IMG/VR virus record: IMGVR_UViG_3300048923_000295 | Location: 1 to 64,000 of that record | Origin: a virus | Taxonomy: Duplodnaviria; Caudoviricetes | Reading direction: 5' to 3' (one strand) | DNA length: 64,000 nucleotides | Shown here: piece after piece, positions 1,792 through 27,187 of the stretch | Position numbering within the stretch: the stretch's first letter is position 1 | How the letters are laid out: each line of letters begins with the position of its first letter | Program-made: the position numbers and the translations under genes | Notes under the pieces: generated by a model | What the model was told of the DNA's origin: nothing | The model's input: only the letters and a program-made list of their open reading frames with translations | The model's database searches: none

Positions 1792-1795
1792 GTTG

Positions 1796-2209: not shown

Positions 2210-2368
2210 GCATACAGAGAGTGATGTTTAGTGCTGCCGCCGGGAGCCCGGCAAGGTTTGCCGCCGCAGCATGTCAGCTTGTTGTCCGCGATTCCGTTGC
2301 GTGACGACAAATCGGACGCATACGGAGTGTTTTTAACGGAAGGTAACGGATCGGTTGATGTCCGGTTG

Positions 2369-5270: not shown

Positions 5271-5272
5271 CC

Positions 5273-7683: not shown

Positions 7684-7759
7684 CCCGGCCTATCAGCCTG
7701 CCCCGGCGCCGATCCCCCCGGACGGCACCGGGGCCTCGGACGTAGAGAAAGGATGCACG

Positions 7760-9934: not shown

Positions 9935-9960
9935 ATACTACGAATTGGTAGATTCGTAGA
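9931..9960. promoter_or_regulatory. Operator-like site
   Basis: CTACGAATTGGTAG 9938-9951 in an AT-rich gap. Confidence 0.7.
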
Positions 9961-9967
9961 ACGAGCT

Positions 9968-11627: not shown

Positions 11628-11893
11628 TCTCCCGACGTGTGCCGTGCCCCTGGTGCCAGCGGCGCACCGCCGTCCGCGCCGATGGGACGCTGCGGGCACA
11701 CCAGCATCGGGGGCGCCGCTGCCCCGGCCGGCGCCTCGACGCCCAGCCGTGCGCCGGTGGATGCAACCGGACGGTTCAGGCCGGTCCCGGCCGTCAGCAG
11801 GGCCAGGACTGGTGGTGCCCGGACGCGGCCTGCCGGCGGCTGTGCGCCCAGCAGCGGCAGCAGGCATGGCGCGGCCGGCGGGTGGCGGCGTGA
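11624..11893 (+). CDS. Small Cys-rich (Zn-binding) protein
   Basis: CPWC, HxH...C, CAGGC, C...C; coupled start. Confidence 0.5.
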   Translation: MISRRVPCPWCQRRTAVRADGTLRAHQHRGRRCPGRRLDAQPCAGGCNRTVQAGPGRQQGQDWWCPDAACRRLCAQQRQQAWRGRRVAA

Positions 11894-12603
11894 CCGGCCG
11901 GCGACCGTGCCCGTGCGGCTGCGGAACCCTTGTCGACCCGCCGCCCCAGCCGTGTGCCTGTGGCTGCGGCCGGCTCGTGTCCTACGGCCCCGGCCGGCGC
12001 GAAGGGCAGCCCTGGTACTCCGCTGATCCGGCATGCCGGCGGGAGCGGGCGCGGGTCAAAGGGGAGCAGCGGCGGCGCGCCCGCGGCGTACCCCGGCGTG
12101 AAGGTGTGCTGCGGGTCTGCGGGCGGTGCGGCCGGCGGTACAGCGCAGTGGTGGGCAGTGCCGCGTCCGCGACCCCGCTGTGCTGGGTGGGCGAGTGCGC
12201 TCGTGAGCGCCGCCGTCGCGCCAACCGCCACCGTCGGGAGCGGGCGGGTGTGCCTTCCCGGCCCGCGTCCGAGCCGTGTGGAGCCTGCGGGCTACCGGTC
12301 CCCCCTGTGCGCGGAAGGGTGCGTTCGCCTGCGTGGCATCAGACGCCGGAGTGCCAGCGGGAGCGGGTCAGGGTGGCGGGCCGGCGGGCGCGGGAACGCG
12401 CCGGCCGGACACCGAAGACCACCCCGTCGCCTGCCCCGGGCCCGGCGGCGGACGTCGCGCTGCCCGCTGCGGGGCTGGTAGGCGCCGACGTAGCCGCGAG
12501 GGCGGCCGCCCGGGTCCGTGAGCATCTCACCGACCCGGAGGCGGTCGAGCTGGTGCTCGCCATGCTCGGCCTCGCCCCCGACCCGCAGCGGGATGCGGCG
12601 TGA
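11890..12603 (+). CDS. Cys/Arg-rich protein
   Basis: CPCGCG, CACGCG, CGRCG, CGACG. Confidence 0.5.
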   Translation: MTGRRPCPCGCGTLVDPPPQPCACGCGRLVSYGPGRREGQPWYSADPACRRERARVKGEQRRRARGVPRREGVLRVCGRCGRRYSAVVGSAASATPLCWVGECARERRRRANRHRRERAGVPSRPASEPCGACGLPVPPVRGRVRSPAWHQTPECQRERVRVAGRRARERAGRTPKTTPSPAPGPAADVALPAAGLVGADVAARAAARVREHLTDPEAVELVLAMLGLAPDPQRDAA

Positions 12604-12764
12604 TCGGGGACGAGCAGCTCGACCTGCACGCCGAGCCGTGCGCCGCCCTGGTACCCGTCCATCCGCAGCCCATCGGGCTGGAGCCGAAACCGCTGTCGTA
12701 CGGGCGGCGGCTCACCGCGCGGAAACGGGAAATGCTCGCCCGGGGGGTGGCGCCCGACGGGTAG
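12600..12764 (+). CDS. Small hypothetical protein
   Basis: GTGA-coupled 54-aa ORF. Confidence 0.35.
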   Translation: MIGDEQLDLHAEPCAALVPVHPQPIGLEPKPLSYGRRLTARKREMLARGVAPDG

Positions 12765-13259
12765 GCATGCGAAACGGCCCGGCGAAGCCACCACGCCGGG
12801 CCGTCCACAGTCACCGAGTTCGCAGCTCGGATCGGTATTTCAGAGGCACGGGATATCCCCCGTCGGGGCATGCCCGCTATCAGAATCGAGTGTATCGCGA
12901 ATGCGACTGACGCCGGGCAAGAATGCCCGGGAATGTGACGGCCATATCGCGGTCGTCGCGTGTTGTGCTGGCCGGAGCCGACACGGCCAGTCGAACAGGC
13001 GTGCCCCGCATGCTGCGGGCAGGCCGGAGTGTATGGTCGGGTTCGCCGGGAGGATCCCGGTCGGACGGCGCCAACCGTCCGACCGTTCACCCGCCTCGCG
13101 GCGATGCACCGCCCACCCGTTGACGCGGGCGCGGTGCCGCACCACCACTGTTGGGACTAGCAACAGAAAGTGGCACAACGTGATACTGGCACATCTTAGT
13201 TTCCGCGCATCCGCGGACGCGCGGCACCTCACGGTCCGCACCCCCGATGGGGGTAGCCG

Positions 13260-14540
13260 GTGACCGGTCCCGCGATCAAATGGCAGATCGAACGGGCCGT
13301 GTTCCGCGACCATCGCAACGACCCGTCCCGGCGCTGGGTCCTCGACCTCGCCCCGCTGACGTCCAACTGCCGTCTGGTCATGTCCGCGCTGTTGAGCCGC
13401 GCTGACGTCGACACGGGCGTCATCGCTGCGGAGAACACCCCCTCGCTGACCGAGCTTGCCGAGCTGACCGGGCTGGACCGGTCCACCGTGCGGCGGATGC
13501 TCAGCGATTTGGAGTCGCTCGGGTGGGTGAAGCGGCACCGCCCAGACCCTGCGGACGCGCGAGCGAACGGCACACGCACCTGGTACGAGCTGGGGCTCCC
13601 CGGACAGAACGGCATGCCCCAGCCGGTCACCCCGAAGCCGCGCAGGAAGACCAAGAAGGCGGCTGAAGGTGGGGGCGCAGCGCCCCCAGCCGAAGCGGCG
13701 GAGGTAGGGGCGCAGGACGCCGGAGGTAGGGGCGCCACGCCCCCAGCGGTAGGGGTGCAGAACCCCATGGGTAGGGGCGCAGCGCCCCCCATTACTTCTT
13801 CCAGACCAGAGAGACCTTCTCCACCACCACCCCCAACCCCCTCCGCGCCGGTGCTCGCGCCGGTCGCGGCGAACGGTGGTGGTGGTGAAAACGATCCCCA
13901 GGAAGACGAAGTACCCGAGACGGCCGAAGACGTCGACGCGGTCGTCGAGCCGATCGCCGATGCGCTCGGCCTGCCGCCGGAGACGCTGCACCCGATCCGC
14001 CCGGCCGTCGCCGCCGCGCTCGCATGCGGCTGGCCCGCTCCGGCGCTCGCCGAGCACCTCGCCGCCGACCCGCCCGCCGAGATGCGTCTGCCTGCCGCCG
14101 TGCTCGCTTCCCGCCTGAAGCCCGCCGTCCTGCCACCGGGCCCGGCCCGTTGCTCGTGCCGGGGATGCTCCCGCTGGCGCCGCGCCGCCGACGCGCTCGC
14201 CCGCCTCGCACCGACCCCGGCGACCTGCATCACCCACAAGACCGAGATCGAGCCGGGCGCCCGGTGCGCGGCCTGCGACGCCGACACCGCCGAGCACCTC
14301 GAGCAGGACCAGCGGGCCCGCCAGGCGCAGGCCGACCGGCAGGCGGACCGCCGGCAGCGCATCGAGGACGCCCGGGACGCCCTCGGCCTGCCCGTCGTCG
14401 CGGCGCTCACCGGCCAGCACAAGAACCCCGGCAGCCGGATCGCAGGCGCCCTGCTCGGCAACTGGCTCGACGATCACGACTGGGACCTCGACGCCGCCCG
14501 CGAGCACGCCGCGACGATCAAGAACAGGCAGGCGTCATGA
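13260..14540 (+). CDS. Replication initiator (wHTH, lambda O-like organisation)
   Basis: PSLTELAELTGLDRSTVRRMLSDLESLGWV wHTH; internal iteron-like repeats. Confidence 0.75.
   Translation: MTGPAIKWQIERAVFRDHRNDPSRRWVLDLAPLTSNCRLVMSALLSRADVDTGVIAAENTPSLTELAELTGLDRSTVRRMLSDLESLGWVKRHRPDPADARANGTRTWYELGLPGQNGMPQPVTPKPRRKTKKAAEGGGAAPPAEAAEVGAQDAGGRGATPPAVGVQNPMGRGAAPPITSSRPERPSPPPPPTPSAPVLAPVAANGGGGENDPQEDEVPETAEDVDAVVEPIADALGLPPETLHPIRPAVAAALACGWPAPALAEHLAADPPAEMRLPAAVLASRLKPAVLPPGPARCSCRGCSRWRRAADALARLAPTPATCITHKTEIEPGARCAACDADTAEHLEQDQRARQAQADRQADRRQRIEDARDALGLPVVAALTGQHKNPGSRIAGALLGNWLDDHDWDLDAAREHAATIKNRQAS
13668..13789 (+). repeat. Five ~20-bp iteron-like repeats (candidate ori)
   Basis: Consensus GGTAGGGGCGCAGCGCCCCC at 13668, 13703, 13725, 13748, 13770. 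Confidence 0.7.
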
Positions 14541-14983
14541 GAGTGTTGATCACCGGGTCGAGGGACTGGCGGAACGCCGACCTGATCGCCGCCCGTCTGG
14601 GCTCGCTGCTGCACCACGCCAGCCCGGCCGAGTTCGTCGTCGTGCATGGCGACTGCCCGCGCGGCGCCGACGCGATGGCCCGCCGCTGGGCCGAGGACGT
14701 CGCAGGCGAACCGAACCCGCGGCCGGGTGTCTCCCATGAGCCGCACCCGGCCGACTGGGATGGCCCGTGCCGGCCGGAATGCACGCACCGAGGTCGACCG
14801 CGTCGCCGCGACGGGGTCGAGTACTGCCCGGCGGCGGGCAACTACCGCAACGCCGACATGGTCGTGGCCGGCGCTGACGTGTGCCTGGCGTTCATCCGGG
14901 ACCGGTCCCCGGGGGCTACCAACTGCGCCCGGCTCGCGCTCGACGCCGGCATCGAGCTGCACGTCTGGCGGGAAACCGCATGA
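14537..14983 (+). CDS. SLOG-superfamily protein (DUF2493/YspA-like)
   Basis: MRVLITGSRDW, VVHGDCPRGADAMA, HPADW, AAGNYRNADMV. Confidence 0.8.
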   Translation: MRVLITGSRDWRNADLIAARLGSLLHHASPAEFVVVHGDCPRGADAMARRWAEDVAGEPNPRPGVSHEPHPADWDGPCRPECTHRGRPRRRDGVEYCPAAGNYRNADMVVAGADVCLAFIRDRSPGATNCARLALDAGIELHVWRETA

Positions 14984-15300
14984 CCGCCGAATCCACAGCC
15001 CCGGTGCTCCGTCTTCGCCGCCGCCCGCCAGGCGCTCCGTCATCCCGCTGGGATGACGGCTCCTGCGGAATCCCCGGCTGCCCCTGCACGCATGACCCGA
15101 ACGGCGCCGAGCCGTGTGACCGGGGATGGACCATGCCGCCGGCCGAGGGCAAGACCGGCGGTATCCCGGGAATCGGCAGCGCGATTGTCGAGCGCCTCCT
15201 TCCCGCGGGTGACGCGGTGCGCCGCTGCCCGACCTGCGCCGGTCACGCGAAACGGCGGGCAGCCATGGCGGAAACGGTCACCCGGGCGGAATCCGCCTAG
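14980..15300 (+). CDS. Cys-rich hypothetical protein
   Basis: CGIPGCPCTH, CDRGW, CPTC. Confidence 0.5.
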   Translation: MTAESTAPVLRLRRRPPGAPSSRWDDGSCGIPGCPCTHDPNGAEPCDRGWTMPPAEGKTGGIPGIGSAIVERLLPAGDAVRRCPTCAGHAKRRAAMAETVTRAESA

Positions 15301-15360
15301 CCGAATTGGCTTGTTGGTCGTATCGTCGATCTCACGATCTACGAATCGTGGGAGGACGTC

Positions 15361-15609
15361 ATGGCTATCACCGTGGCGTCGCCCCGCCGGCCGGTGCGGG
15401 GCGACGCCGAGCGCGCCGGGCACTGCGGTACCCGTGGCTGCCGCTGCACCCACCTGGCGACGGATCCGCTGTTTCCCGAGGCTCCGGCCTGTGACCATGG
15501 GTTCCGGCCGGCGCCGCCTGGCGCCCGGAGCCCGCGGGGGAACCTGCTGGGTCCGGGTGCGGTGGTGCCGTGTCCGGCGTGCCGGGAGGCGCTGCTCAAC
15601 GCCGTGTAG
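15361..15609 (+). CDS. Cys-rich hypothetical protein
   Basis: GGAGG RBS; CGTRGCRCTH, CDHG, CPAC, similar to the preceding ORF. Confidence 0.55.
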   Translation: MAITVASPRRPVRGDAERAGHCGTRGCRCTHLATDPLFPEAPACDHGFRPAPPGARSPRGNLLGPGAVVPCPACREALLNAV

Positions 15610-15622
15610 GTGCCGGTAGATC

Positions 15623-15648
15623 CTACGAATTGGTAGTTTCGTCGAAAT
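15623..15648. promoter_or_regulatory. Operator-like site
   Basis: CTACGAATTGGTAG (15623-15636) followed by TTTCGTCGAAAT. Confidence 0.7.
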
Positions 15649-15745
15649 CTGGTAGTGTCGTAGACGCCAACGCAAACGGCCGCCCCACCCGATCCCCTGT
15701 CAGAGATCACGGGCGAGACGGCCGCGACATGCAAGGAGCAAGTCT

Positions 15746-16411
15746 ATGACCCACCTCTCCATCGAACCCACCCCCCGTGACCACACGCTGGCCCGGCTCC
15801 ACTTCGCCGGCCTGGACCAGCCGACGGACGTCCACCAGCGCGCCGCGGACCTCCTGGCTTCCTCCGTCGACGCGCTCGCCGCGTCCGTCAGGGGCCTGGA
15901 CGTCCTCCGCTCCTACGCGGAGATGCGCCGGATGACTGCCGTCGTCGCGGCCTACCGGACGCAGATCGCCGAGATGGCCGCGGACGAGGCCGCCGACCGC
16001 GCGGTAGAAGAGCGCGACCCGCTCAACGACGCCGACATTCGCTGCGGCACCTGCAAGAAGTCGCAACTTGCCCGCCGGGGCGGCTGCACCTGTACCCGGA
16101 CCATCCCGCTCCCCAAGGCGGCGGCAGTGACCACGCAGAGCGTCGTTGTCTGGAAGCACCGGCTCCCCGACCTCGTCACCGCCCTCCGGCTGCCCGTCGG
16201 AGCGACCGTGCTCCACGTCGCCGCGCAGGGCCGGGACATGCTCCTCTGGGAGGCCCACCCGGTCAATTCGGCCGCGACCGAAACCCGGACGTTCGTGCGC
16301 ATCAGCACCGGCTCCACCGCCACCGTCGACGTCCAGCGGTATGTCGGCACGGTCCACATGGACAACGGCGACGTGGCCCACGTGTTCGAGGTGGACGGGG
16401 ACCAGCAGTGA
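15746..16411 (+). CDS. Hypothetical protein
   Basis: AAGGAG RBS, 221 aa. Confidence 0.65.
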   Translation: MTHLSIEPTPRDHTLARLHFAGLDQPTDVHQRAADLLASSVDALAASVRGLDVLRSYAEMRRMTAVVAAYRTQIAEMAADEAADRAVEERDPLNDADIRCGTCKKSQLARRGGCTCTRTIPLPKAAAVTTQSVVVWKHRLPDLVTALRLPVGATVLHVAAQGRDMLLWEAHPVNSAATETRTFVRISTGSTATVDVQRYVGTVHMDNGDVAHVFEVDGDQQ

Positions 16412-17160
16412 CCGCCCCGGCCGAGGACCGGATGCTCGGCCGCATCCGGAAGCTGCTCGCCATGGCTGAGGCCGACGGGCTCACCGAGGCGGCCCGCGAC
16501 TCGTACAACGCGAAGGCCGCCGAGCTGATCGCCCAGTACGGCATCGACCAGGTGCTCCTCGCCGCGCACGCCCCGATGTCGGCCGCCCCGGTCGACCGGA
16601 CGATCGAGCTGCTGGCGCCGTACGCCCGAGACAAGGCCGACCTGCTGTGGGCGGTGTTGGAGCCGCTGCGTTGCAAGGGAGTCCGCACCATCCGCTCCCG
16701 GACGGGCCGCGTCGAGATGCGGGTGTTCGGGATGCCGGCCGACCTCGAACGCGCCGAGGTGCTGTTCACCTCGCTGCTCGTCCAGGTCGCGCACGGGACG
16801 GCCGTCGCCTACCCGGACGATCCGATGGAGTCCATTGCCGCGTACCGCCGGTCGTGGATCATGGGCTTCCGGGTGGCCATCCACCGCCGCCTGATGGAGA
16901 CCGAGCGGCACGCCACCGAGCAGGCCACCTCCGCCGAGACCACCGTCGCCGGCACGCCGGCCCGGTCGGTTGCCCTCGTGCTCGTCGAGCAGAAGGACCG
17001 CGTCGAGCAGGCGGTGCACGCCGCCTACCCGAAGCTGAAGAAGGCCAAGCCCCGCAGCCTGGCCGGTACCGGCTACCAAGACGGCGCTGCCGCCGGCCGC
17101 CGCGCCGACCTCGGCGGCACCCGCCTCGGCGGGCAGAGACGTCGGGCGGTGGGACGGTGA
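16408..17160 (+). CDS. DUF2786-domain protein
   Basis: LGRIRKLLAMAEADGLTEAARDSYNAKAAELIAQYGID; YRRSWIMGF. Confidence 0.8.
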   Translation: MTAPAEDRMLGRIRKLLAMAEADGLTEAARDSYNAKAAELIAQYGIDQVLLAAHAPMSAAPVDRTIELLAPYARDKADLLWAVLEPLRCKGVRTIRSRTGRVEMRVFGMPADLERAEVLFTSLLVQVAHGTAVAYPDDPMESIAAYRRSWIMGFRVAIHRRLMETERHATEQATSAETTVAGTPARSVALVLVEQKDRVEQAVHAAYPKLKKAKPRSLAGTGYQDGAAAGRRADLGGTRLGGQRRRAVGR

Positions 17161-17582
17161 CCGCCCCGACCCGCCCGGCCGCGATGACCGCGACCCGCGG
17201 CGACGTCCTGCGGGCCCTCGCCGAGGCCGTCGACCGGCTGCCCGCGACGGTGCGGCTGACCCTGTCCGCCGGCCCCTTCACGGGCCGCAGCCCCTACTTC
17301 TCGGTCCACGCGCACGGCGGGACCCCGCAGCAGAACGTCGCCGCGCTGGCGACGATCGCACACGACCTCGCGCTCACCCTGGTCGTCCCGGTCACCGTCG
17401 ACCAGTGGGCCGACGCCGACGGCGACGAGGTCATCTCGATCAGCGCGACGACCCGCTGGCGCGGCGTCCGCCTGGAGCTCGTCGCCTTCCCCCGTGCGGA
17501 CCACAGGCCGGACGCCGACGTCGTGGAGGCGTTGGTCGCGCCGCTGCGGCTCGCGCTCGGCCCCGCGGCGGTGACGTCGTGA
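17157..17582 (+). CDS. Hypothetical protein
   Basis: GTGA-coupled. Confidence 0.55.
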   Translation: MTAPTRPAAMTATRGDVLRALAEAVDRLPATVRLTLSAGPFTGRSPYFSVHAHGGTPQQNVAALATIAHDLALTLVVPVTVDQWADADGDEVISISATTRWRGVRLELVAFPRADHRPDADVVEALVAPLRLALGPAAVTS

Positions 17583-17767
17583 TCGGCCCGGACGGAATGC
17601 CGATCCCCGGAGCCGGCTGGCCCGCCCTGGAGCCCCCCGGCCCCCTGTACGCCCCCCGGCCGCCGCGCCGATGGGACCTCGCCGCCTGGGTGCTGCTGTT
17701 CGCCCTCGGCACTCCGGCGGCGCTGCTCCTCGGCATCCACCTCGGCATCAACCTGGCCCGGCCGTGA
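17579..17767 (+). CDS. Small membrane protein
   Basis: WDLAAWVLLFALGTPAALLLGIHLGI. Confidence 0.55.
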   Translation: MIGPDGMPIPGAGWPALEPPGPLYAPRPPRRWDLAAWVLLFALGTPAALLLGIHLGINLARP

Positions 17768-18219
17768 CCGGCCCGCAGGTGCAGACCCTCGGCTACGCCC
17801 CAGACCATCCCGGGTGGGCGGCGGTCTGGCCGGCGCTCGGCGGGGATCTCGCGCAGATCGTCGCCGACGCGGCCCGCCACAACATCGCCCTGGACGCGGT
17901 CATCACCGCCGACCAGATGTGGCTGCACACCAACCAGCAGAGCCTCCTGACGCTCCACGGCCCGCACACCCCCGGGCTGGCGCACCGCTGGCTGCACGAG
18001 ACCGCGCAGACCAGCGGCGTGCCCTACGGGCCGTGGCTCGCCGCCGCGATGCTCCACATCCACCTGGTCGCCCCGGCCTGCACCCGGCTCGGTTCGGACA
18101 CGGACTGGGACCGCGGCTGGCTGCCCGCCAGGCGGATCTGCTCCCGCCGGTTCGACCCCGTGCCGGACACGTCCCCGCTGGTCCAGCCGGCGGATGCGTT
18201 CGCCGGCATCCAACTCTAG
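17764..18219 (+). CDS. Hypothetical protein
   Basis: GTGA-coupled. Confidence 0.55.
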   Translation: MTGPQVQTLGYAPDHPGWAAVWPALGGDLAQIVADAARHNIALDAVITADQMWLHTNQQSLLTLHGPHTPGLAHRWLHETAQTSGVPYGPWLAAAMLHIHLVAPACTRLGSDTDWDRGWLPARRICSRRFDPVPDTSPLVQPADAFAGIQL

Positions 18220-18227
18220 GAATGATC

Positions 18228-18419
18228 ATGACAGACGAAAAGCCGACCCTCCGATCGGGCGCGGTCGCCGAACGTTTCGGCGTCGACACCAAAACGGTTC
18301 TCGCCTGGGTGCACGCTGGGAAGCTGAAGGCCGTCAAGACCCTCGGAGGGCACTACCGGTTCCGCGAGTCTGACGTCAACGCGGCCGCCGAAGCACAGCA
18401 GGCTCTGGACGGGCAGTGA
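18228..18419 (+). CDS. BldC/excisionase-family MerR-type HTH protein
   Basis: LRSGAVAERFGVDTKTVLAWVHAGKLKAVKTLGGHYRFRESDV. Confidence 0.85.
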   Translation: MTDEKPTLRSGAVAERFGVDTKTVLAWVHAGKLKAVKTLGGHYRFRESDVNAAAEAQQALDGQ

Positions 18420-18674
18420 GCGACCTCGACGGGGCGACGATCGCGAACTGCCCGGACTGCTGGGGCACCGTCTGGGTTCCTCCTAGCGGCACGGCGAGCA
18501 GCTCCAGCGCCCACGCATCCAACAAGCCCTGCCCCGGTCGGCCGCGCCGGTGAGCGGCGTCTGCGTGCTCTGCCTCGGCACCGGCGCTCCCTGCCTGCGC
18601 TGCGGCGGGCAGGGCATCGACCCCGACCCGGAAGCCGCGAAGCTCCCCCAACCCGACACCACACCGGAGGCACG

Positions 18675-19058
18675 GTGAACCCCCTCGATTTCCCCCCCGG
18701 CTCGCGTCAGGACCTACAGTCCCGACGACTTCAGGGCGCGGTGCTCAACTGCGCCGACTGGGAGCTGACCTTCGGTGCCACGAACATCCCTTTGATCGCC
18801 CAGCGCCGTTACCAGTGTGGTGCGGAAAGTGGATGCGTGCGCGGTTTCCACTACTGCGTGATCGCCACCGTCGGCTACTGGGACACCGAAGCCGGCGGCG
18901 AATGGCACTGGCATCTGATCGACACGCGGCGGGACCGCCCCGGCGACAGCGTCGTTCGCCTCGACAGGTCGCCCTACACCGAACCCAGTGAGGCGATGGC
19001 CAAAGCCGAGCAGGGGACGACCTTGTTCCTCGCGGGCCACGCCGACTGCCACATCTGA
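18675..19058 (+). CDS. Hypothetical protein
   Basis: GGAGG RBS before GTG. Confidence 0.6.
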   Translation: MNPLDFPPGSRQDLQSRRLQGAVLNCADWELTFGATNIPLIAQRRYQCGAESGCVRGFHYCVIATVGYWDTEAGGEWHWHLIDTRRDRPGDSVVRLDRSPYTEPSEAMAKAEQGTTLFLAGHADCHI

Positions 19059-19183
19059 GCCCCGATCGCCGGCCTCTTCCCTCCCCTTGGGGCTGGCGGT
19101 CCTCCCCCGCCTGCCGGCCTGGCCTCTCGCTCCCCTGTCACGCGGCCGGGCCGGCAGGCATCCCGAACGCGAAAGGAATCCCA

Positions 19184-19582
19184 GTGGAACGAACCGACCG
19201 GTTCGACGGCACGATCACCGCCACCGTCCGCTACAGCGGCTGGAAGCCGCCGGCCGACGAAATCGTCGAGGGCCTGACCGACTTCTTCGGACCCTACCGG
19301 GACGACGAGCTGCCCTACATCCGGCAGATCCGCCTCGACGCCCGGGCGGCGCCGACCCGCCGGAACCTGGTGCTCGCTATCGGCGTGTCGTACGCCCTGT
19401 TCGTCGGCCTCGTGCTGGCCGTCTACGGACTGATCCTCACCTACGACCACCGGTTCTGGCTCGGCGTGGGCCTGGCCGTCGTCGGCGCGGCGCTGGCCGG
19501 GGTCGCCGCCAGCTGGATCGTCCGGCTGTTGCGCCGAGAGGTCCAGCGGGAGCGGGACAGCGTCATCTACAGCAAGCCCTGA
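19184..19582 (+). CDS. Membrane protein (2 TM)
   Basis: AAAGGA RBS; two hydrophobic helices. Confidence 0.7.
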   Translation: MERTDRFDGTITATVRYSGWKPPADEIVEGLTDFFGPYRDDELPYIRQIRLDARAAPTRRNLVLAIGVSYALFVGLVLAVYGLILTYDHRFWLGVGLAVVGAALAGVAASWIVRLLRREVQRERDSVIYSKP

Positions 19583-19658
19583 GACCGGCCGTCCGGCCCG
19601 GCCCCTCATCCCCTGTCACGGGCCGGGCCGGCAGGCACCCCAACCACCAAGGAAAGCG

Positions 19659-20225
19659 ATGATCGAGGACACCACCAAGCGCGCCCCGATGCTCCACCTC
19701 CTCGGCGCCTTGTCCGACGGCCCCTCCGGCTACATCGAGGGCATGGAGGCCGGCGGCGGCCGGCAGCTCGCCGCCTCCGACCTCCTACCCACCGACCTCT
19801 CCCCAGCCGACGAGGGCGCCTGGACCGCGCTCGGGTTCACCCTCGGCGACACGGTCGACGGCGACCCCCTGTTCCGCCACGCCACCTTGCCGGAGGGCTG
19901 GACCCGCCGCTCCCACCAGGATCCGCGCGGCTCGGACATCCTCGACACCCGCGGCATCCCCAGGGTGTCGATCTTCTACAAGGCGGCGTTCTACGACCGG
20001 CGGGCGTCCGCGAGCATCGTCAACGTCGGTTCCGTCGTCGCGAACACCGCGATCTACGACGACGGCGACTACATGATCCCCTGGGATCTGCTGACCGCCG
20101 ACGAGACGGCGACCGTCGTCCGTGTGCTCGACGAGTACCTCGCCGACGTCGCCGACTATCCGGGCACCCACGGTCAGCGCGTTCCCCGCGTGCAGGCGCT
20201 CCGCAGCTCGGCGCCGTCCACCTGA
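19659..20225 (+). CDS. Conserved actinophage hypothetical protein
   Basis: AAGGAAAG RBS; LPEGWTR, SIFYKAAFYDRRA. Confidence 0.7.
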   Translation: MIEDTTKRAPMLHLLGALSDGPSGYIEGMEAGGGRQLAASDLLPTDLSPADEGAWTALGFTLGDTVDGDPLFRHATLPEGWTRRSHQDPRGSDILDTRGIPRVSIFYKAAFYDRRASASIVNVGSVVANTAIYDDGDYMIPWDLLTADETATVVRVLDEYLADVADYPGTHGQRVPRVQALRSSAPST

Positions 20226-20360: not shown

Positions 20361-20936
20361 ATGCGCTTCGCGTTGGAGCTGACCGGCGCCACACCGTTGG
20401 TCATGCACAACATCCGTCTGGCCGACGAAGACGACGAGATCGTCATGGAGATCAAGAAGCTGACGAGTAAGAAAACGAAGACGAAGCAGGACCGAGACGA
20501 AATCGGCCGCTTGGAGTGGTACGGCGGTCTCTACACCGACCAGGGGAAGGTGGTGATGCCGACCGAGAACTTCAAGCGGTGCGTTGCCGAGATTGCCAAG
20601 GTTCGGAAGCTCGGCAAGGCGGTCGAGCGGGCGATGTTGCCCCTCGACGGTCTTCACGTTCCACTCATCCACGATGGCCCGCAGTCCCTCGAAGAACTGT
20701 GCTCCTCCGACGTCTACCGACTCAGGAAGTCGGTGGGCGTGATGGGCAGGCGTGTTACGCGAGTCAGGCCGCGATTCCCGGCCTGGGGCCTGACGCTGTC
20801 CGTGGAACTGCTGGCGGACGTCATGGACCCTGGCACCTTTGTCGACCTCGTCCATCTCGCCGGCCGCGCCGAGGGCCTTGGCGACGGAAGGCGCATCGGC
20901 TATGGACGATTCTCGGCCACGATAAAGGAGGTATGA
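20361..20936 (+). CDS. Stand-alone Cas7/RAMP-like RNA-binding protein (candidate guide-RNA filament subunit)
   Basis: N-terminal LELTGATPLVMH (RAMP beta1-like), VTRVRPRF, and C-terminal glycine loop EGLGDGRRIGYGRF; adjacent to GGY-NN arrays. Confidence 0.75.
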   Translation: MRFALELTGATPLVMHNIRLADEDDEIVMEIKKLTSKKTKTKQDRDEIGRLEWYGGLYTDQGKVVMPTENFKRCVAEIAKVRKLGKAVERAMLPLDGLHVPLIHDGPQSLEELCSSDVYRLRKSVGVMGRRVTRVRPRFPAWGLTLSVELLADVMDPGTFVDLVHLAGRAEGLGDGRRIGYGRFSATIKEV

Positions 20937-20957
20937 TGCTGAAGCAGGCCGCCGCCA

Positions 20958-21027
20958 GGACCGGCATGGCTAGGCGGGGCTCGGCCTGGTTGGGCCAGGC
21001 ATTGCGCGGTAAGGCTGGGTTGGGCGG
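20958..21027 (+). ncRNA. GGY-NN pentamer array 0 (candidate guide RNA)
   Basis: GGA CC GGC AT GGC TA GGC GG GGC TC GGC CT GGT TG GGC CA GGC AT TGC GC GGT AA GGC TG GGT TG GGC GG. Confidence 0.75.
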
Positions 21028-21036
21028 TGGGCTGGC

Positions 21037-21549
21037 GTGAGCCCGTTCACCGCCCGCAGCCCCGACGGCCGCTCGGAATGGCAGATCGTCCGCGACCTCA
21101 TCGCCACCTACAGCCTGAAGCCGGGCGACATCCTCCCCTACCACGATCTCCACGTCGCCCTGAACAGGGACGAGGAAGAGCGGCAGGCCGTCCAACGGGC
21201 CGCCCGCGAAGCCTCACGACACATGCTCCAGCTCGACAAGAGATGCCTGGTCCCGGTGCCGAACGAGGGCTACCGGCTGGCGCTCCCCAGCGAGCACGTG
21301 CGCGTCGCCAAGGAACGGGAGGCGCGGGGGGTCCGCCAGTTCGCCCGAGCGATCAAGGTGTACGACGGCACCCCGCTCGACGAACTGAAGCCCGCCGAGC
21401 GCGAACTTCACCTCAACACCTCCATGCTCGCCAAGACCGCTTTCGCCGCTCTCGATGATCACGAGAAGAGGCTACGGAGACTGGAAAATGTGATCGGTGG
21501 GATCGCCGGACCCAAAATCATTGATCACGACCCGGAAGAGATAGTGTAA
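21037..21549 (+). CDS. Partner protein of the RAMP/array locus (possible wHTH plus coiled coil)
   Basis: 170 aa between arrays; LPYHDLHVAL...AVQRAAREASRHML...LVPVPNEGYRLA suggests a wHTH. Confidence 0.65.
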   Translation: MSPFTARSPDGRSEWQIVRDLIATYSLKPGDILPYHDLHVALNRDEEERQAVQRAAREASRHMLQLDKRCLVPVPNEGYRLALPSEHVRVAKEREARGVRQFARAIKVYDGTPLDELKPAERELHLNTSMLAKTAFAALDDHEKRLRRLENVIGGIAGPKIIDHDPEEIV

Positions 21550-21563
21550 AGAACACAGTTCTG

Positions 21564-21707
21564 GGCCGCGCAGGTTAGGGCGGGGCCCGGCTAGGCGGGG
21601 CTGCGCTAGGCAGGTCCCGGCGGGGAAGGGAAGGCTGGGGCGCTTTCATGCGCGGGTGGCGGGCAGGCATCAACGTTCGAGCCGTTGACACCCACGGCCG
21701 AAAGGCC
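21564..21707 (+). ncRNA. Array unit 1: GGY-NN tract, hairpin, tRNA-like module, GNRA hairpin
   Basis: Tract 21564-21642 (degenerate, 1-nt slip near 21627); GCGC-TTTCAT-GCGC; GGGTG/CACCC-A; CAACG-TTCGAGC-CGTTG; GGCC-GAAA-GGCC. Confidence 0.75.
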
Positions 21708-21718
21708 GATTAACTCGC

Positions 21719-21849
21719 GGCGTGGCTTGGCCCGGCTCGGCAAGGCGAGGCGGGGCGAGGCGCGGCGTGGTGAGGCTGGGGCGCTTTCATGCGCGGGAGG
21801 CTGGCAGCCATCGGGGTTCGAGGCCCCGACTCCCACGGTCGCAAGACCG
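21719..21849 (+). ncRNA. Array unit 2
   Basis: 12 perfect GGY-NN (21719-21778); GCGC-TTTCAT-GCGC; GGGAG/CTCCC-A; TCGGGG-TTCGAGG-CCCCGA; CGGTC-GCAA-GACCG. Confidence 0.85.
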
Positions 21850-21860
21850 ATTCAGGTAAA

Positions 21861-21996
21861 GGCGCGGCTAGGTCAGGCTCGGCCGGGCGAGGCACGGCAT
21901 GGCATGGCTGGGCCGGGGAAGGCTGGGGCATCTTCGGATGCGGGCGGATGGCATACACGCGGGGTTCGAGTCCCCGGCGCCCACGGCCGAAAGGCC
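21861..21996 (+). ncRNA. Array unit 3
   Basis: 11 perfect GGY-NN then GGG AA GGC TG GGG; GCATC-TTCG-GATGC; GGGCG/CGCCC-A; CGGGG-TTCGAGT-CCCCG; GGCC-GAAA-GGCC. Confidence 0.85.
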
Positions 21997-22011
21997 AGCA
22001 CGGTTCAGACT

Positions 22012-22084
22012 GGCGGGGCCGGGATAGGTGTGGCACCGCTGGGCGCGTCTAGGCGCGGCGCCGCTGGGCCTGGCAAAGCTGGGA
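22012..22084 (+). ncRNA. Array unit 4 (more degenerate tract)
   Basis: GGC GG GGC CG GGA TA GGT GT GGC AC CGC TG GGC GC GTC TA GGC GC GGC GC CGC TG GGC CT GGC AA AGC TG GGA. Confidence 0.7.
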
Positions 22085-22115
22085 GCGGGGGGGCGACTCG
22101 AAGTCGCCCCCCCGC
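22085..22115 (+). terminator. 14-bp hairpin closing the array transcript
   Basis: GCGGGGGGGCGACT-CGA-AGTCGCCCCCCCGC. Confidence 0.65.
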
Positions 22116-22256
22116 ATTCAAAGCAATTTGAACACATCCGAGAGGACCCCTGTTGCGCGTTCGTCTCCGCCGTGCCGCCTGCCGCTGCCGACATCGCCGA
22201 CGACCTGCTCGACCTCGTCACCGACCTGATCACCCGCTGACCGAACGGAACCGATC

Positions 22257-24250: not shown

Positions 24251-26536
24251 TCAAGCGGCGGCACCGGCCAGCCAGGCGGGCACCGTGTCCGGCGCCTTCG
24301 CGAAGCTCGGGCAGGCGGTCACGTCCAGCGCGTTCCGCGCCCGCGTCACTGCGACGTACAGGAGCATCAGCTCGTCCGCGTTGCCGTCGAGCTGGCCGGG
24401 CGGCGGGAAGTCCGCGGCGAGCTTCACCGTGTCCCACTCCAGCCCCTTGACGCAGTGCACGGTGCCCACCGTGACGTCCGCAGCCCGCAGGTCGGACAGA
24501 TCCGCCAGCCCCGCGATGATCGCCTCCGGGCCGAAGTCCTCGACCAGCTTCACGAGCAGCGCAATGTCACTGCCGAGCTCGTCGAACTCGCAGTTGTGGG
24601 AGAGCAGGCCCTCGGCGATGAAGGTGCGGGCGTCCGTACGTACAGCGACGACCTCGCGCTCTCCCACGTACTCGACATTGACGACCTTGGTCCGGGGGGT
24701 GCGGCCAATCTGGCGACGCTCCCACAAGCCTCCGGCCGCCGCGACTAGGCGCTCAGGGCGCGTAGTACCCAGCAGGCGCAGCTGCTCGGAGAGCCCTCCT
24801 CGTATGACAAGTTGCCGCACCTCGCTTGGGGCGCTGCCATGCGCGTAGTCGCCGAACTCGAAGCCTCGGTCCTTGAGCAAGGAACGAACCCGCTCAAGCA
24901 CCGGCCCCTCCTTCTGAGAGATTGACAAGTGACGGTTGCGGCTGCTCTCACCCCGGCAGCCAGCGGACCCCTCACCGTCGAACATGCCCGCCAACCAGCC
25001 GGCATCCTTGGTGTCTTCCTCCTCCCACCGCCCGAGAGTCAGGATCGGCGTGCCGGGCGAGAGCCGCTCCGTGTGCATCCAACGGAGGTTGTTGCCTTGC
25101 TGGACGATCCAGCGATGCTCGGCACTCGCTGTGACCGTGGTGCCGTCGTCCGTGGTGATGCGGTAGCACGGCCTAGTGATGGTCTTGACACTCTCCACGA
25201 CGGCCGTCCGATACCGGCGTCCTCGCGCATCCGCCGGCGTCTCCTCATCGAAACCTACGAGACGGTCGCCCGGCTCCAGAGTGTCAATGGTCTGCCAGCG
25301 AAGATCTGAGGTGAGCACTCTCGTCTCTGGCGCGAGACAGTAATCCTGCACCTGCCCCCACGTCGAGAAGCAGGACAGCTCCGGGTGCGCCGTCCACCCT
25401 TGGTCGCGGAGCTCGATCGCACCGCGGGCGAAGGAGACGACGGCCTGCGCCGTGTTCCCCACCAAGTGGACCTTCCTTCCGGCCTTCATCAGCGTCAGCG
25501 CCTCGGACACGGCCGTCGCATTGGTGCGGCAGAGGATCGCGTCGATCATCTCGCACGGGCCGATGTAACCGGCTTCGTCGTCGCTGCCGGGCCTGCCCTT
25601 GAGCCGCAGGGGGGTGTCGAGCTGGGCGAGGAGGGTGTTCGCGAAGTCGGCGAGGTCCTGACCGAACCGGAACGACTGGGACAGGTAGGCGGTGCGGTCG
25701 ACCTCGATGTTCTTGAAGGCGTCCAGGCAGCCGTTGAACGAGTTGATCGCCTGGGCCGAGTCGCCTACCAGTACCACGCGGCTGCCGAGCTGCATCTGCT
25801 TCTTGATGATCGAAAGCATGATCGGACTCATGTCCTGCGCCTCGTCGATCATGAGAATTTCGGCGCCGATCCACGGCATCCGCCGCACACCCGGCCGCGA
25901 CGGGTGCAGCCCCAGCTCCCACATCTTCAGGAAGTGCGCCGGGCTGTACGGCAGGACCCCGTTCGTCTTCTGCGCGTCCTCCCACGCACGGTTCAGCGCC
26001 GGGAGCATCCGCGCCCGGAGCATGTCGTTGGCCTTGTAGGTGCGCTTCCCAGTCGCCGAGTCGGGGGCGTCGATCCCGTCCACATACCGGAAATGGTCGA
26101 CACTGGGCGCCTCGGCGTCGGACTGGCAGAACCGGCCGAGCGCCCGCAGCACGTAGGACGCGAGCCACGCCGGACGCAGCGCCCGCGATCCCCCACCGAT
26201 CTGCGGCACCCACACCGGCTCGTTGATGCCGAGCGCCTTCGCGTTCTCCGCCGAGGTGCGCCGCACGTTCGACCGTCCGGAGAACTCCCGGCCGACCGCG
26301 TCGAACGCGAATCCGTGCATCGTCCGGACCCGCACGTTCCGGCCCATCTTGCCCTTCTGCTCCTGGCAGATGGCCTTGTTGAACGCCGTGTAGGCGACCC
26401 GCCGGTCCCGGTATTCGTGGGCGATCGCGCGGAGCACCGTCGACTTTCCGCAGCCTGCCCCGGCCTGGATGGCGAGGTGGCCGCCTTCAGCGAACAGGTC
26501 GATGGCCTTCTGCTGCTCGGGTGTGGGCTGGAACAT
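24251..26536 (-). CDS. UvrD/REP-family SF1 helicase with intein
   Basis: AGAGCGKS, YTAFNK, IDEAQD, LVGDSAQAI, LSQSFRFG, CRTNA, TVHCVKGLEW, YVAVTRA. Confidence 0.9.
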   Translation of the reverse strand: MFQPTPEQQKAIDLFAEGGHLAIQAGAGCGKSTVLRAIAHEYRDRRVAYTAFNKAICQEQKGKMGRNVRVRTMHGFAFDAVGREFSGRSNVRRTSAENAKALGINEPVWVPQIGGGSRALRPAWLASYVLRALGRFCQSDAEAPSVDHFRYVDGIDAPDSATGKRTYKANDMLRARMLPALNRAWEDAQKTNGVLPYSPAHFLKMWELGLHPSRPGVRRMPWIGAEILMIDEAQDMSPIMLSIIKKQMQLGSRVVLVGDSAQAINSFNGCLDAFKNIEVDRTAYLSQSFRFGQDLADFANTLLAQLDTPLRLKGRPGSDDEAGYIGPCEMIDAILCRTNATAVSEALTLMKAGRKVHLVGNTAQAVVSFARGAIELRDQGWTAHPELSCFSTWGQVQDYCLAPETRVLTSDLRWQTIDTLEPGDRLVGFDEETPADARGRRYRTAVVESVKTITRPCYRITTDDGTTVTASAEHRWIVQQGNNLRWMHTERLSPGTPILTLGRWEEEDTKDAGWLAGMFDGEGSAGCRGESSRNRHLSISQKEGPVLERVRSLLKDRGFEFGDYAHGSAPSEVRQLVIRGGLSEQLRLLGTTRPERLVAAAGGLWERRQIGRTPRTKVVNVEYVGEREVVAVRTDARTFIAEGLLSHNCEFDELGSDIALLVKLVEDFGPEAIIAGLADLSDLRAADVTVGTVHCVKGLEWDTVKLAADFPPPGQLDGNADELMLLYVAVTRARNALDVTACPSFAKAPDTVPAWLAGAAA
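24593..25339 (-). mobile_element. Intein (249 aa) with LAGLIDADG motif
   Basis: Starts CLAPETRVLT, TASAEHRW block B, WLAGMFDGEGS, ends FIAEGLLSHN followed by Cys +1. Confidence 0.9.
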
Positions 26537-26649
26537 CAGGGTCCCCCTTCGTCTCGATTCTACCGAAACCTACCATATTCGTAGTTTCGACGAAATTACC
26601 ATACCGGCAGACCTCGACCACCACTCTCCGTAGCCGGATCCGGTGGCCG

Positions 26650-26747
26650 GACATCCGGACATCCGCCCACCCATCGCGCAGGCACGCGCGGGCACACAGG
26701 CGATCCGGACGTCCGCCCGGACAACCCAGGACGTCACCCAACGTCAC
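26650..26747 (+). repeat. Cluster of 8-bp direct repeats (candidate clt)
   Basis: GACATCCG x2 tandem (26650, 26658), GACGTCCG 26708, GACAACCC 26720, GACGTCAC 26730, AACGTCAC 26740. Confidence 0.45.
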
Positions 26748-26845
26748 AGCACTCCCGACCGGGGGAGGGGATCCCGATCTACGAAATGGTCGGATCGGCG
26801 ATAGGGTGACAACACCTATCCCGCCCTCGGCGAAAGCGAGCCCCC

Positions 26846-27187
26846 ATGGCCCAGAAGACCTTCGTCAGCCTGGTCTGCGACATCACCGGGGAGGAGGCTG
26901 CCGAGACGGTGCGATTCAGCCTCGACGGCGCCCAGTACGAGATCGACCTGACCGGGCCGAGGGCGGACGAGCTTCGCGGCGCCCTGGCGCCGTTCATCAC
27001 CGCAGGACGCCGGCAGGGCGCGAAGCCGGCCCGACGTCGCAGTGGCGGCGCGACCGCGCCGAGGGCGACCAGCGGAACCGCGGACGTCCGCGAGTGGGCC
27101 CGCGAACAGGGAATCGAGGTGTCCGACCGGGGCCGGATCTCCCGGGAGATCCTCACCCAGTACGAGGCGGCACAGACCCCCGCCTGA
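26846..27187 (+). CDS. lsr2: Lsr2 nucleoid-associated protein / xenogeneic silencer
   Basis: MAQKTFVSLVCDI, TVRFSLDGAQYEIDL, VREWAREQGIEVSDRGRI. Confidence 0.95.
   Translation: MAQKTFVSLVCDITGEEAAETVRFSLDGAQYEIDLTGPRADELRGALAPFITAGRRQGAKPARRRSGGATAPRATSGTADVREWAREQGIEVSDRGRISREILTQYEAAQTPA

What the first reader, a model, noticed from the sequence alone, without database searches (positions are those of the whole stretch)
20361..22115. Cas7/RAMP-like gene with GGY-NN pentamer arrays: candidate RNA-guided system with a gapped guide code
Seen: a 191-aa protein with a RAMP-like first strand (LTGATPLVMH) and C-terminal glycine loop (GLGDGRRIGYGRF); no cas1, cas2, cas3 or CRISPR repeats in the window. 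Five tracts have 5-nt periodicity with a near-constant GGY and a variable NN. NN strings: array 0 AT TA GG TC CT TG CA AT GC AA TG; unit 1 CG AG AG GG CC TA GG TG TA AG CC GG; unit 2 GT TT CC TC AA GA GG GA GC GT GA TG; unit 3 GC TA CA TC CG GA AC AT AT TG CG AA TG; unit 4 GG CG TA GT AC TG GC TA GC GC TG CT AA TG. Knowledge: Cas7 RAMPs polymerise along RNA at a fixed nucleotide period. Inference: one subunit binds each GGY and presents NN for pairing, giving ~24-nt non-contiguous guides against DNA or RNA of competing elements. From memory this matches the recently reported viral VIPR architecture (GGY/NN RNAs, every third target base skipped); I cannot verify that here.
Basis: partly seen in the sequence, partly recalled or inferred. 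Interest (0 to 1): 0.97.

Follow-up and report, generated by a model that had tools for sequence, protein, structure and literature searches.

The report
Prophage VIPR system, tRNA-like guide spacers
This stretch of an actinobacterial prophage is a complete VIPR system, a CRISPR-related RNA-guided DNA-silencing system first described in 2026 preprints, so it is a new example of a known kind; its one unusual feature is that its guide RNAs are separated by small tRNA-like modules.

Summary
The 191-aa protein (20361-20936) matches the solved SUSP1 Vipr protein by sequence (PDB 36pp, E 1.4e-15, residues 5-188). It folds as a Cas7/Csm3-type RAMP and keeps most of the published RNA- and DNA-contact residues. 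The next gene (21037-21549) belongs to PHROG 5926, the family of vap1 in SUSP1-clade phages, and is predicted to be a winged-helix protein.

Five GGY/NN tracts of 11-14 units lie on the same strand. No shuffle gives a tract above 6 units. GGY is 87-89% conserved, while NN is at chance level between paralogs and 38% between orthologs.

There is no cas1, cas2 or CRISPR array. The record is an 81-kb provirus from a high-GC actinobacterium.

By homology, Vipr subunits should bind one per GGY and read double-stranded DNA as NNx. I found no natural target.

Guides 1-3 are followed by a hairpin, a covarying tRNA-like acceptor/T-arm minihelix and a GNRA hairpin. The minihelix recurs in Gordonia and Mycobacterium phage VIPR loci. 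The held VIPR papers do not mention it. It may recruit RNase P/Z, but this is inferred.

This scan has noted VIPR loci, some with tRNA-like tails, on other DNA before.

The parts
20361..20936 (+). vipr: 191-aa RAMP (Cas7-like) protein that should polymerise on the vrRNA, one subunit per GGY/NN unit
   Evidence: PDB 36pp_D 'SUSP1 Vipr protein', E 1.4e-15, residues 5-188. PHROG 4652, E 2e-30. AF2 pLDDT 96.4. Foldseek top hits are Csm3/Cas7 of type III and VII, prob 1.0. Equivalents of SUSP1 H17, K33, R39, R138, D177 and R179 are conserved as H16, K32, K38, R136, D175 and R177.
20958..21055 (+). vrRNA 0: 11-12 GGY/NN units (20958-21017) in the vipr-vap spacer, then GG plus a long hairpin (about 21022-21055) that overlaps the vap start codon
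   Evidence: hairpin -35.3 kcal/mol, z -2.7. The ortholog in L005 keeps GGY at 32/36 positions but NN at only 9/24.
21037..21549 (+). vap1-like accessory gene, 170 aa, predicted winged-helix DNA-binding domain plus two long helices
   Evidence: PHROG 5926, E 8.9e-9. The gene after vipr belongs to the same family in wV8 (SUSP1 clade, 7e-76), LESphi2, LittleE, MakoManhole and Trine. 441 representative homologs. AF2 pLDDT 93.8 with an H-E-H-H-E-E wHTH topology. Weak Foldseek hits to OmpR/GntR/MarR-type wHTH domains.
21564..21653 (+). vrRNA 1: about 12-14 units (partly degenerate, one register slip), the conserved GGCTG-GGG motif and hairpin P1 (21640-21653)
21654..21707 (+). tRNA-like module 1: acceptor-like stem, 11-nt GG linker and T-arm (21654-21694), then GNRA hairpin P4 (21696-21707)
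   Evidence: RNAalifold and pair counts on 9 copies. R1 model score 92.7 bits.
21719..21794 (+). vrRNA 2: 12 perfect GGY/NN units (21719-21778) plus hairpin P1 (21781-21794)
21795..21848 (+). tRNA-like module 2 (21795-21835) plus GNRA hairpin P4 (21837-21848)
21861..21941 (+). vrRNA 3: 13 units (21861-21925) plus hairpin P1 (21928-21941)
21942..21996 (+). tRNA-like module 3 (21942-21983) plus GNRA hairpin P4 (21985-21996)
   Evidence: Sub-threshold Rfam match to mascRNA-menRNA (18.2 bits, E 0.59).
22012..22115 (+). vrRNA 4: 14 units (22012-22081, four with degenerate GGY), then a 14-bp GC hairpin (22085-22115) that takes the place of P1 and probably ends the transcript; no tRNA-like module
   Evidence: -35.4 kcal/mol, z -5.6.

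Best explanation
This is a type II-like VIPR (Viral Interference Programmable Repeat) operon of an actinobacterial provirus. Its order is vipr, vrRNA0, vap1-like gene, then vrRNA1-4.

By homology with the SUSP1 and P. fulva systems, the operon is transcribed on the + strand and cut into five guide RNAs. Vipr subunits then assemble along each guide, one per pentamer. Each GGY is flipped out and held by the G-loop, thumb and first beta-strand, and the 11-14 NN dinucleotides are left exposed.

The filament binds double-stranded DNA whose sequence reads NNxNNx, with one base skipped per unit, giving a footprint of about 33-42 bp. It silences transcription there, with the winged-helix Vap1-like protein assisting. 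The likely targets are competing prophages, satellites or other mobile elements in the same host.

Shown here:
- homology and fold of both proteins
- conservation of most published contact residues
- the repeat code and the hypervariability of NN
- a covarying structured tail

Inferred:
- transcription and RNP assembly
- the 1-nt-skip rule in this clade
- silencing and the identity of the targets

A further inference concerns the tRNA-like minihelices between guides. I propose they are cut by host RNase P (5' side) and RNase Z or a similar enzyme (3' side). This would release guide-plus-hairpin units, in the way hammerhead ribozymes punctuate other VIPR arrays.
For: - Vipr homology: PDB 36pp SUSP1 Vipr, E 1.4e-15 over residues 5-188.
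- Vipr fold: AF2 pLDDT 96.4 and Cas7/Csm3 top hits.
- Contact residues named in 10.64898/2026.04.26.720927 are conserved in the pairwise alignment and mostly invariant across 31 homologs.
- The partner gene is in the vap1 family, PHROG 5926, with a wHTH model.
- Five same-strand GGY/NN tracts lie far beyond chance.
- Every related vipr locus fetched has such tracts on the vipr strand, with different NN.
- GGY versus NN identity is 89% versus 38% between orthologs and 87% versus 22% between paralogs.
- No guide matches its own provirus at any skip length, as published for other VIPRs.
- Context: no cas1, cas2 or CRISPR array, and the record is a provirus.

For the tail:
- 97% of cells pair, against 32-48% in slid controls, and 13 of 19 pairs show compensatory changes.
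- The T-arm has an invariant G-C closing pair and a TTCGAnn loop.
- The minihelix recurs in Trine, MakoManhole and LittleE.
- In Trine and MakoManhole a minihelix precedes the first guide.
- The terminal unit here (vr4) and vr0 lack it.
Against: - No natural target was found.
- There is no expression or binding data.
- SUSP1 W178, which stacks on the second G, is Gly176 here and varies across the clade.
- Units 1 and 4 contain degenerate GGY units, and unit 1 has a register slip.
- The tail differs from the published pseudoknot tail, so type II membership rests on Vipr homology and vap1 only.
- No sigma-70-type promoter or U-tract terminator was detected. That scan is not tuned to actinobacteria.
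- Against the processing idea: in the related record G001 the last visible unit also carries a minihelix, and single-sequence fold energies are not better than shuffles.
Confidence: 0.92

Rival explanations
1. The tRNA-like module is not a cleavage signal. It is the structural 3' tail of each vrRNA and is the local equivalent of the SUSP1 pseudoknot that caps the Vipr filament. It stays attached to the guide.
For: - Published vrRNAs carry a conserved structured 3' tail that caps the filament.
- In G001 all six visible units, including the last, carry the module.
- In Trine and MakoManhole no separate P1 hairpin lies between guide and minihelix.
Against: - vr0 and vr4 in this locus and the last LittleE unit have only GGG plus a hairpin and no minihelix.
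- In Trine and MakoManhole a minihelix sits 5' of the first guide with no guide before it.
- The imitation of the tRNA acceptor/T-arm stack, with a G-C closing pair and a TTCGAnn loop, is needlessly exact for a mere cap.
Confidence: 0.35
2. The locus is a decaying VIPR remnant that no longer functions; the arrays are relics.
For: Degenerate GGY units and a register slip occur in vr1 and vr4. No target was found. The W178 equivalent is lost.
Against: - Both ORFs are intact and give high-confidence folds.
- Contact residues are conserved.
- Three guides have 11-13 clean units.
- The tails keep pairing through compensatory changes.
- The VIPR authors themselves report frequent internal degeneracy of vrRNAs.
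Confidence: 0.05
3. It is an orphan CRISPR-Cas Cas7 gene, or the G-rich tracts are protein-coding low-complexity sequence. On this reading the pentamer periodicity is incidental.
For: Cas7/Csm3 chains are the top structural matches. A 148-aa ORF (21685-22131) can be drawn across the arrays.
Against: - The sequence match is to Vipr, not to any Cas7.
- There is no cas1, cas2 or CRISPR array.
- A 5-nt period cannot be a codon period.
- Relatives keep the tracts but not any reading frame.
- The tails covary as RNA.
Confidence: 0.02

Closest known systems
Type II VIPR systems of Escherichia phage SUSP1 and the Pseudomonas fulva prophage (bioRxiv 10.64898/2026.04.26.720920, .720927 and 10.64898/2026.10.15.759431)
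   Same: - Homologous Vipr protein with conserved GGY- and DNA-contact residues
- vap1-family second gene
- One vrRNA apart from a downstream array of three or four
- 11-14 GGY/NN units per guide with a fixed last unit followed by GGG
- Viral or proviral location
- No self-targeting
   Different: - Only about 29% protein identity to SUSP1-clade Vipr by tblastn, and the W178 equivalent is lost.
- The separate vrRNA lies between vipr and vap rather than upstream.
- The tail is a simple hairpin followed, in internal units, by a tRNA-like minihelix and a GNRA hairpin, instead of a hairpin-pseudoknot.
- High-GC actinobacterial host.
- Targets unknown.
Hammerhead-ribozyme-interspersed vrRNA arrays of type I and V VIPR (fig. 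S19 legend of 10.64898/2026.04.26.720920)
   Same: A structured RNA module sits between successive guides and could define their ends.
   Different: Here the module is a tRNA mimic that would need host RNase P/Z rather than cutting itself. No hammerhead family match was found.
Class 1 CRISPR backbone subunits (Cas7 / Csm3 / Cmr4)
   Same: RRM core, G-loop and thumb fold. The protein polymerises along a guide RNA with periodic base flipping (for the published comparison).
   Different: - 10-14% sequence identity
- 5-nt instead of 6-nt period
- Three guide bases flipped per unit
- No repeat-spacer array, no adaptation genes, no other Cas subunits
tRNA-like 3'-end processing elements (MALAT1/mascRNA) and engineered tRNA-gRNA arrays
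   Same: An acceptor/T-arm mimic is placed next to a functional RNA so that RNase P and RNase Z can cut it out. The best, sub-threshold, Rfam match of module 3 is mascRNA-menRNA.
   Different: The resemblance is of mechanism only: 18.2 bits against a gathering score of 42.5. The modules have no anticodon arm or D stem, and cleavage is untested.

Membership tests
VIPR system | Vipr protein: a minimal single-RRM RAMP homologous to published Vipr | tested here: met
   PDB 36pp_D SUSP1 Vipr, E 1.4e-15, 184 of 191 residues aligned. Cas7/Csm3 fold, pLDDT 96.4.
VIPR system | G-loop, thumb and beta-strand residues that hold GGY (SUSP1 H17, R138, D177, W178, R179), and DNA-contact lysines or arginines (K33, R39) | tested here: met
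   H16, R136, D175, R177, K32 and K38 align with them. H16 and R136 are invariant across 31 homologs, and D175 and R177 are at least 90% conserved. W178 is not conserved (G176).
VIPR system | vrRNAs of about 9-16 tandem GGY/NN (YNNGG) units on the vipr strand in flanking non-coding DNA | tested here: met
   Five tracts of 11-14 units. No shuffle exceeds 6 units.
VIPR system | GGY conserved and NN hypervariable between paralogs and between related loci | tested here: met
   GGY 87-89% versus NN 22-38% identity. NN differs in all related loci.
VIPR system | Conserved structured 3' tail after the repeat tract | tested here: met
   All five units have the GCTG-GGG motif plus a hairpin. The tail of units 1-3 covaries. 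The structure differs from the SUSP1 pseudoknot.
VIPR system | Minimal locus without CRISPR array or adaptation genes, usually in a virus or provirus | tested here: met
   The record is classed as a provirus, 87% complete. No Cas1 or Cas2. No CRISPR-like repeats.
VIPR system | Guides match natural targets under the 1-nt-skip (NNx) rule and not their own contig | tested here: inconclusive
   No self match at any skip length. No exact NNx match in IMG/VR for four guides. Seeds of 8 or 9 NN gave only chance hits. The host genome is not available.
VIPR system | vrRNAs are expressed and co-purify with Vipr; programmable repression | not testable with these tools
   Needs sRNA-seq, pull-down and reporter assays.
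VIPR type II | vap1-type predicted DNA-binding accessory gene next to vipr | tested here: met
   PHROG 5926 is shared with the gene after vipr in SUSP1-clade phage wV8 (7e-76) and in LESphi2. wHTH model.
VIPR type II | Placement in the type II clade of the authors' Vipr phylogeny | not tested
   The authors' reference tree and type labels are not available here. The only support is that SUSP1 Vipr is the best solved match.
tRNA (Rfam RF00005) for the inter-guide modules | Cloverleaf with anticodon arm and D arm, recognised by tRNA finders | tested here: not met
   ARAGORN finds no tRNA in the window. No Rfam tRNA match at E up to 10. Only the acceptor-like stem, the GG linker and the T-arm are present.
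CRISPR-Cas (Class 1) | Repeat-spacer array, cas1/cas2 and further effector subunits | tested here: not met

The most novel reading that the evidence does not exclude
In actinobacterial phages, VIPR guide arrays are punctuated by tRNA-like acceptor/T-arm minihelices that hand vrRNA maturation to the host tRNA-processing enzymes (RNase P at the 5' side, RNase Z or similar at the 3' side). This would be a third natural way of cutting VIPR arrays, besides staggered processing and hammerhead ribozymes, and a natural counterpart of engineered tRNA-gRNA arrays. The structure itself is well supported by covariation. The cleavage role is inferred from the mimicry and from the position of the modules.
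Probability: 0.45. Interest if true: 0.6.

Novelty: new member of a known kind. Interest (0 to 1): 0.4.

Why it matters
VIPR is a months-old field whose experiments come from two Gammaproteobacteria systems.

This locus, together with the Gordonia and Mycobacterium phage loci found beside it, shows the same vipr-vap1-vrRNA design working in high-GC Actinomycetota phages. It gives five natural guides whose targets could be sought once the host genome is known.

How vrRNA arrays are matured is not addressed in the VIPR papers I could read. The tRNA-like modules offer a concrete, easily tested hypothesis for it. They also suggest a compact natural design for multiplexed guide expression.

The finding also flags mis-annotated 'hypothetical protein' genes in deposited actinophage genomes that are really vrRNA arrays.

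Tried and rejected
1. Self-targeting. All five guides were scanned against the whole 80,937-bp provirus at skip 0-3 with shuffled-NN controls. Nothing exceeded the shuffles except the guides matching themselves at skip 3.

2. Cross-targeting. 31 guides were scanned against all held loci, about 190 kb. No hit reached 85% under the 1-nt-skip rule.

3. Exact NNx patterns of 10 NN for vr0, vr2, vr3 and vr4 in IMG/VR gave 0 hits each.

4. Seed-and-extend:
- A 9-NN seed of vr2 in JGI metagenomes gave 27 hits, mostly in low-GC contigs. None matched more than 3 of the 6 flanking NN bases.
- An 8-NN seed of vr3 in IMG/VR gave 1 hit that did not extend.
Only exact matching was possible and the host genome is not held, so targets remain unknown, not absent.

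5. Relatives. The search for related loci in genome contigs found no relatives in two scans. The genome search cannot draw relatives for a virus record.

6. Host identification failed. tblastn of the TraB-like protein against plasmids gave no match, and tblastn of the helicase against phages was uninformative.

7. Megablast of window 1-20000 against GenBank phages gave only a 114-bp antirepressor match.

8. Pfam has no family for either protein.

9. Foldseek of the Vap model gave no hit below E 0.001.

11. The sigma-70 promoter and U-tract terminator scan found nothing and is not suited to actinobacteria.

12. I read the guides as NNx codons on both strands by eye to look for a familiar protein motif. 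I recognised none; no tool was used for this.
Full report
**What is in the sequence.** The stretch 20361-22115 holds two + strand genes and five G-rich non-coding tracts. A scan for GGY repeated in phase every 5 nt finds tracts of 7 or more units only at 20963-21027, 21579-21623, 21719-21778, 21861-21925 and 22002-22076. All are on the + strand. No tract above 6 units appeared in 100 dinucleotide-preserving shuffles of the window or in 500 shuffles of the region alone.

Unit 1 has a one-base register slip and several degenerate units. Unit 4 has four degenerate GGY units. In all five tracts the last unit is G/A-GCTG followed by GGG, and the unit before it ends in RA. These two units therefore look like part of the handle.

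**The protein.** Pfam has no family for the 191-aa product, but PHROG 4652 matches at 2e-30. A phmmer search of all PDB chains returns a single hit: 36pp chain D, 'SUSP1 Vipr protein', E 1.4e-15, aligned over residues 5-188.

An AlphaFold2 model built on 31 homologs has mean pLDDT 96.4. Its best Foldseek matches are Csm3/Cas7 subunits of type III and type VII CRISPR effectors, at probability 1.0 and 10-14% identity.

The cryo-EM paper names the SUSP1 residues that hold GGY and the DNA. Their equivalents here are:

| SUSP1 residue | Here |
|---|---|
| H17 | H16 |
| R138 | R136 |
| D177 | D175 |
| R179 | R177 |
| K33 | K32 |
| R39 | K38 |
| W178 | G176 (not kept; this position varies in the clade) |

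H16 and R136 are invariant across the 31 homologs, and D175 and R177 are nearly so.

**The partner gene.** ORF 21037-21549 (170 aa) hits PHROG 5926. The gene directly after vipr belongs to the same PHROG in five phages:
- Felixounavirus wV8 of the SUSP1 clade, at 7e-76. This is vap1, given the 1,114-bp vipr-vap1 module described.
- Pseudomonas phage LESphi2.
- Mycobacterium phage LittleE.
- Gordonia phages MakoManhole and Trine.

An exhaustive profile search finds 441 representative homologs. The AF2 model has pLDDT 93.8. It shows a winged-helix topology followed by two long helices. Foldseek gives only weak matches, to OmpR-, GntR- and MarR-type winged-helix domains. This fits the published description of type II Vaps as predicted DNA binders.

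**Context.** The window is the first 64 kb of an 80,937-bp IMG/VR provirus record estimated 87% complete. Neighbouring genes include:
- a wHTH protein
- DUF2786/DUF7168 and DUF7352 proteins
- a UvrD-type helicase interrupted by a LAGLIDADG intein
- an Lsr2 homolog

GC is 71.5% and GC3 of neighbouring genes is 0.88-0.95, which points to an actinobacterial host. The VIPR genes are lower in GC, at 62-65% with GC3 of 0.82. There is no Cas1 or Cas2 match in the record and no CRISPR-like array.

**Relatives.** 73 homologs down to 35% identity were found, mostly on short metagenome contigs. 34 GenBank phages also encode one. Every locus I could fetch has GGY/NN tracts on the vipr strand next to vipr or vap, with unrelated NN content.

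For the orthologous vipr-vap spacer array in the closest relative (L005, 69% protein identity):
- GGY positions are 32/36 identical.
- NN positions are 9/24 identical.
- vipr DNA identity is 72%.

Among the window's own guides, GGY identity is 87% and NN identity is 22%. This is the published VIPR signature.

**Comparison with the literature.** VIPR was reported in 2026 preprints. The published picture is:
- A Vipr RAMP protein and vrRNAs of 9-16 YNNGG units with a structured tail.
- One protomer per repeat, with GGY flipped out and NN pairing with double-stranded DNA while every third target base is skipped.
- Transcriptional silencing of competing phages and satellites.
- Seven types with varied array architectures.

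The present locus meets every defining feature that sequence can test. I file it as a type II-like member on the strength of Vipr homology to SUSP1 and the vap1-family gene. Formal placement on the authors' tree was not possible.

**The tail.** Units 1-3 are each followed by about 75 nt that repeat with a 141-148 nt period. The same architecture occurs six times in a row at the end of another IMG/VR contig (L015/G001). That array runs off the contig end, so its vipr is not visible.

RNAalifold on the nine copies predicts four helices:
- **P1:** a hairpin directly after GGG.
- **P2:** a 5-bp stem.
- **P3:** a 6-bp stem-loop enclosed by P2 after an 11-12 nt linker.
- **P4:** a GNRA-tetraloop hairpin.

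13 of 19 pairs show compensatory changes. 97% of cells pair, against 32-48% when partners are slid. None of 500 shuffles reaches the observed covariation.

P3 has an invariant G-C closing pair and a 7-nt loop TTCGAnn. From established tRNA knowledge, this is the T-arm signature (G53-C61, T54-Psi55-C56-R57-A58). P2 stacked on P3 gives 11 bp, close to the 12-bp acceptor/T-arm stack. The linker has an invariant GG where a D-loop G18-G19 would lie.

It is not a tRNA. ARAGORN and Rfam find none. The best sub-threshold Rfam match of module 3 is mascRNA-menRNA, a tRNA-like RNA cut out by RNase P and RNase Z.

A covariance model of the tail also hits minihelices in the VIPR arrays of Trine, MakoManhole and LittleE. 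There, 9 of 11 pairs covary. SUSP1-clade and LESphi2 tails lack the module. So do the closer metagenomic relatives L001, L005, L006 and L008, some of which have long uninterrupted tracts.

The texts of the four held VIPR-related papers and the one held supplement never mention tRNA. Their figures are not held.

**What the modules may do.** Several positional facts favour a punctuation or processing role:
- vr0, which is followed by vap, has only GGG plus a hairpin.
- vr4, the last unit, also has only GGG plus a hairpin.
- The last LittleE unit is the same.
- In Trine a minihelix follows the vipr stop codon and precedes the first guide, so three minihelices bracket two guides.
- In MakoManhole a minihelix precedes the single guide upstream of vipr.

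RNase P cutting at the P1/P2 junction and a 3' tRNA-type cut after the acceptor-like stem would release guide-plus-P1 RNAs of about 80 nt. P4 would be left at the 5' side of the next guide.

Against this, the last visible unit in G001 also carries a module, and Trine and MakoManhole have no P1 hairpin. The module could therefore equally be a structural cap retained on the vrRNA. I put the processing reading at about 45%.

**Targets.** No guide matches its own provirus better than shuffled guides at any skip length, as published for other VIPRs. Exact NNx patterns for four guides found nothing in IMG/VR. Shorter seeds found only chance matches that do not extend. Cross-scans among the held loci were negative.

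**Verdict.** The system is a new member of a published kind. The tRNA-like inter-guide modules are a well-supported structural feature that I did not find described, but their function is inferred.

Earlier notes of this scan report VIPR loci on other DNA, including an actinophage with tRNA-like tails and arrays flanked by or holding tRNAs. I treated these as leads. I tested the structure only on the sequences named above.

Noticed in passing
L009 (Gordonia phage Trine) 3591-4394; L011 (Mycobacterium phage LittleE) 2557-2946, minus strand: Deposited 'hypothetical protein' CDSs overlap vrRNA arrays. Only residues 111-235 of Trine gp40 match the vap family, and its first ~110 codons cover two guides and two minihelices. 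LittleE gp35 lies antisense to two vrRNAs. Both are probably mis-annotations.
   Followed up: partly
L015 / G001 26210-27066, minus strand: An IMG/VR contig ends in an array of six vrRNAs with the same P1, tRNA-like and GNRA tail. No vipr was detected on the 27-kb record. Either vipr is cut off by the contig end or this is a solo vrRNA array.
   Followed up: partly
window 20361-21549: vipr and vap have 62-65% GC and GC3 of 0.82-0.83. The window averages 71.5% GC and neighbouring genes have GC3 of 0.88-0.95. This hints that the module was acquired from a lower-GC source or is under different constraints.
   Followed up: no
window 21022-21055: The long hairpin that ends vrRNA0 overlaps the GTG start (21037) and the likely ribosome-binding site of vap. 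vrRNA0 folding or processing and vap translation may therefore compete on one transcript.
   Followed up: no
window 24251-26536, minus strand: A UvrD/SF1-type helicase gene is interrupted by an intein with a LAGLIDADG homing-endonuclease domain.
   Followed up: partly
window 26846-27187: An Lsr2 homolog (dimerisation plus DNA-binding domains). Lsr2 is the actinobacterial xenogeneic silencer, here carried by the provirus.
   Followed up: partly
window 13703-13789: Two 42-nt direct repeats, each containing GGTAGGGG(C/T)GC twice, lie inside the ORF of a 426-aa wHTH (IclR/MarR-like) protein. They are possibly iterons of a replication origin.
   Followed up: no
L001/L002 959-1068 and 1695-1799; L005 5197-5296: Relatives with 50-69% identical Vipr have uninterrupted tracts of 18-21 pentamers and no tRNA-like modules. 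These resemble the published 'staggered' arrays, so array architecture changes quickly within this clade.
   Followed up: no
window 21552-21566, 21696-21707, 21837-21848, 21985-21996: Each of guides 1-4 is preceded by a small hairpin. Guide 1 has AGAAC-ACA-GTTCT and guides 2-4 have the GNRA hairpin P4. This may be a 5' protective structure, for example against a 5'-3' exonuclease.
   Followed up: no
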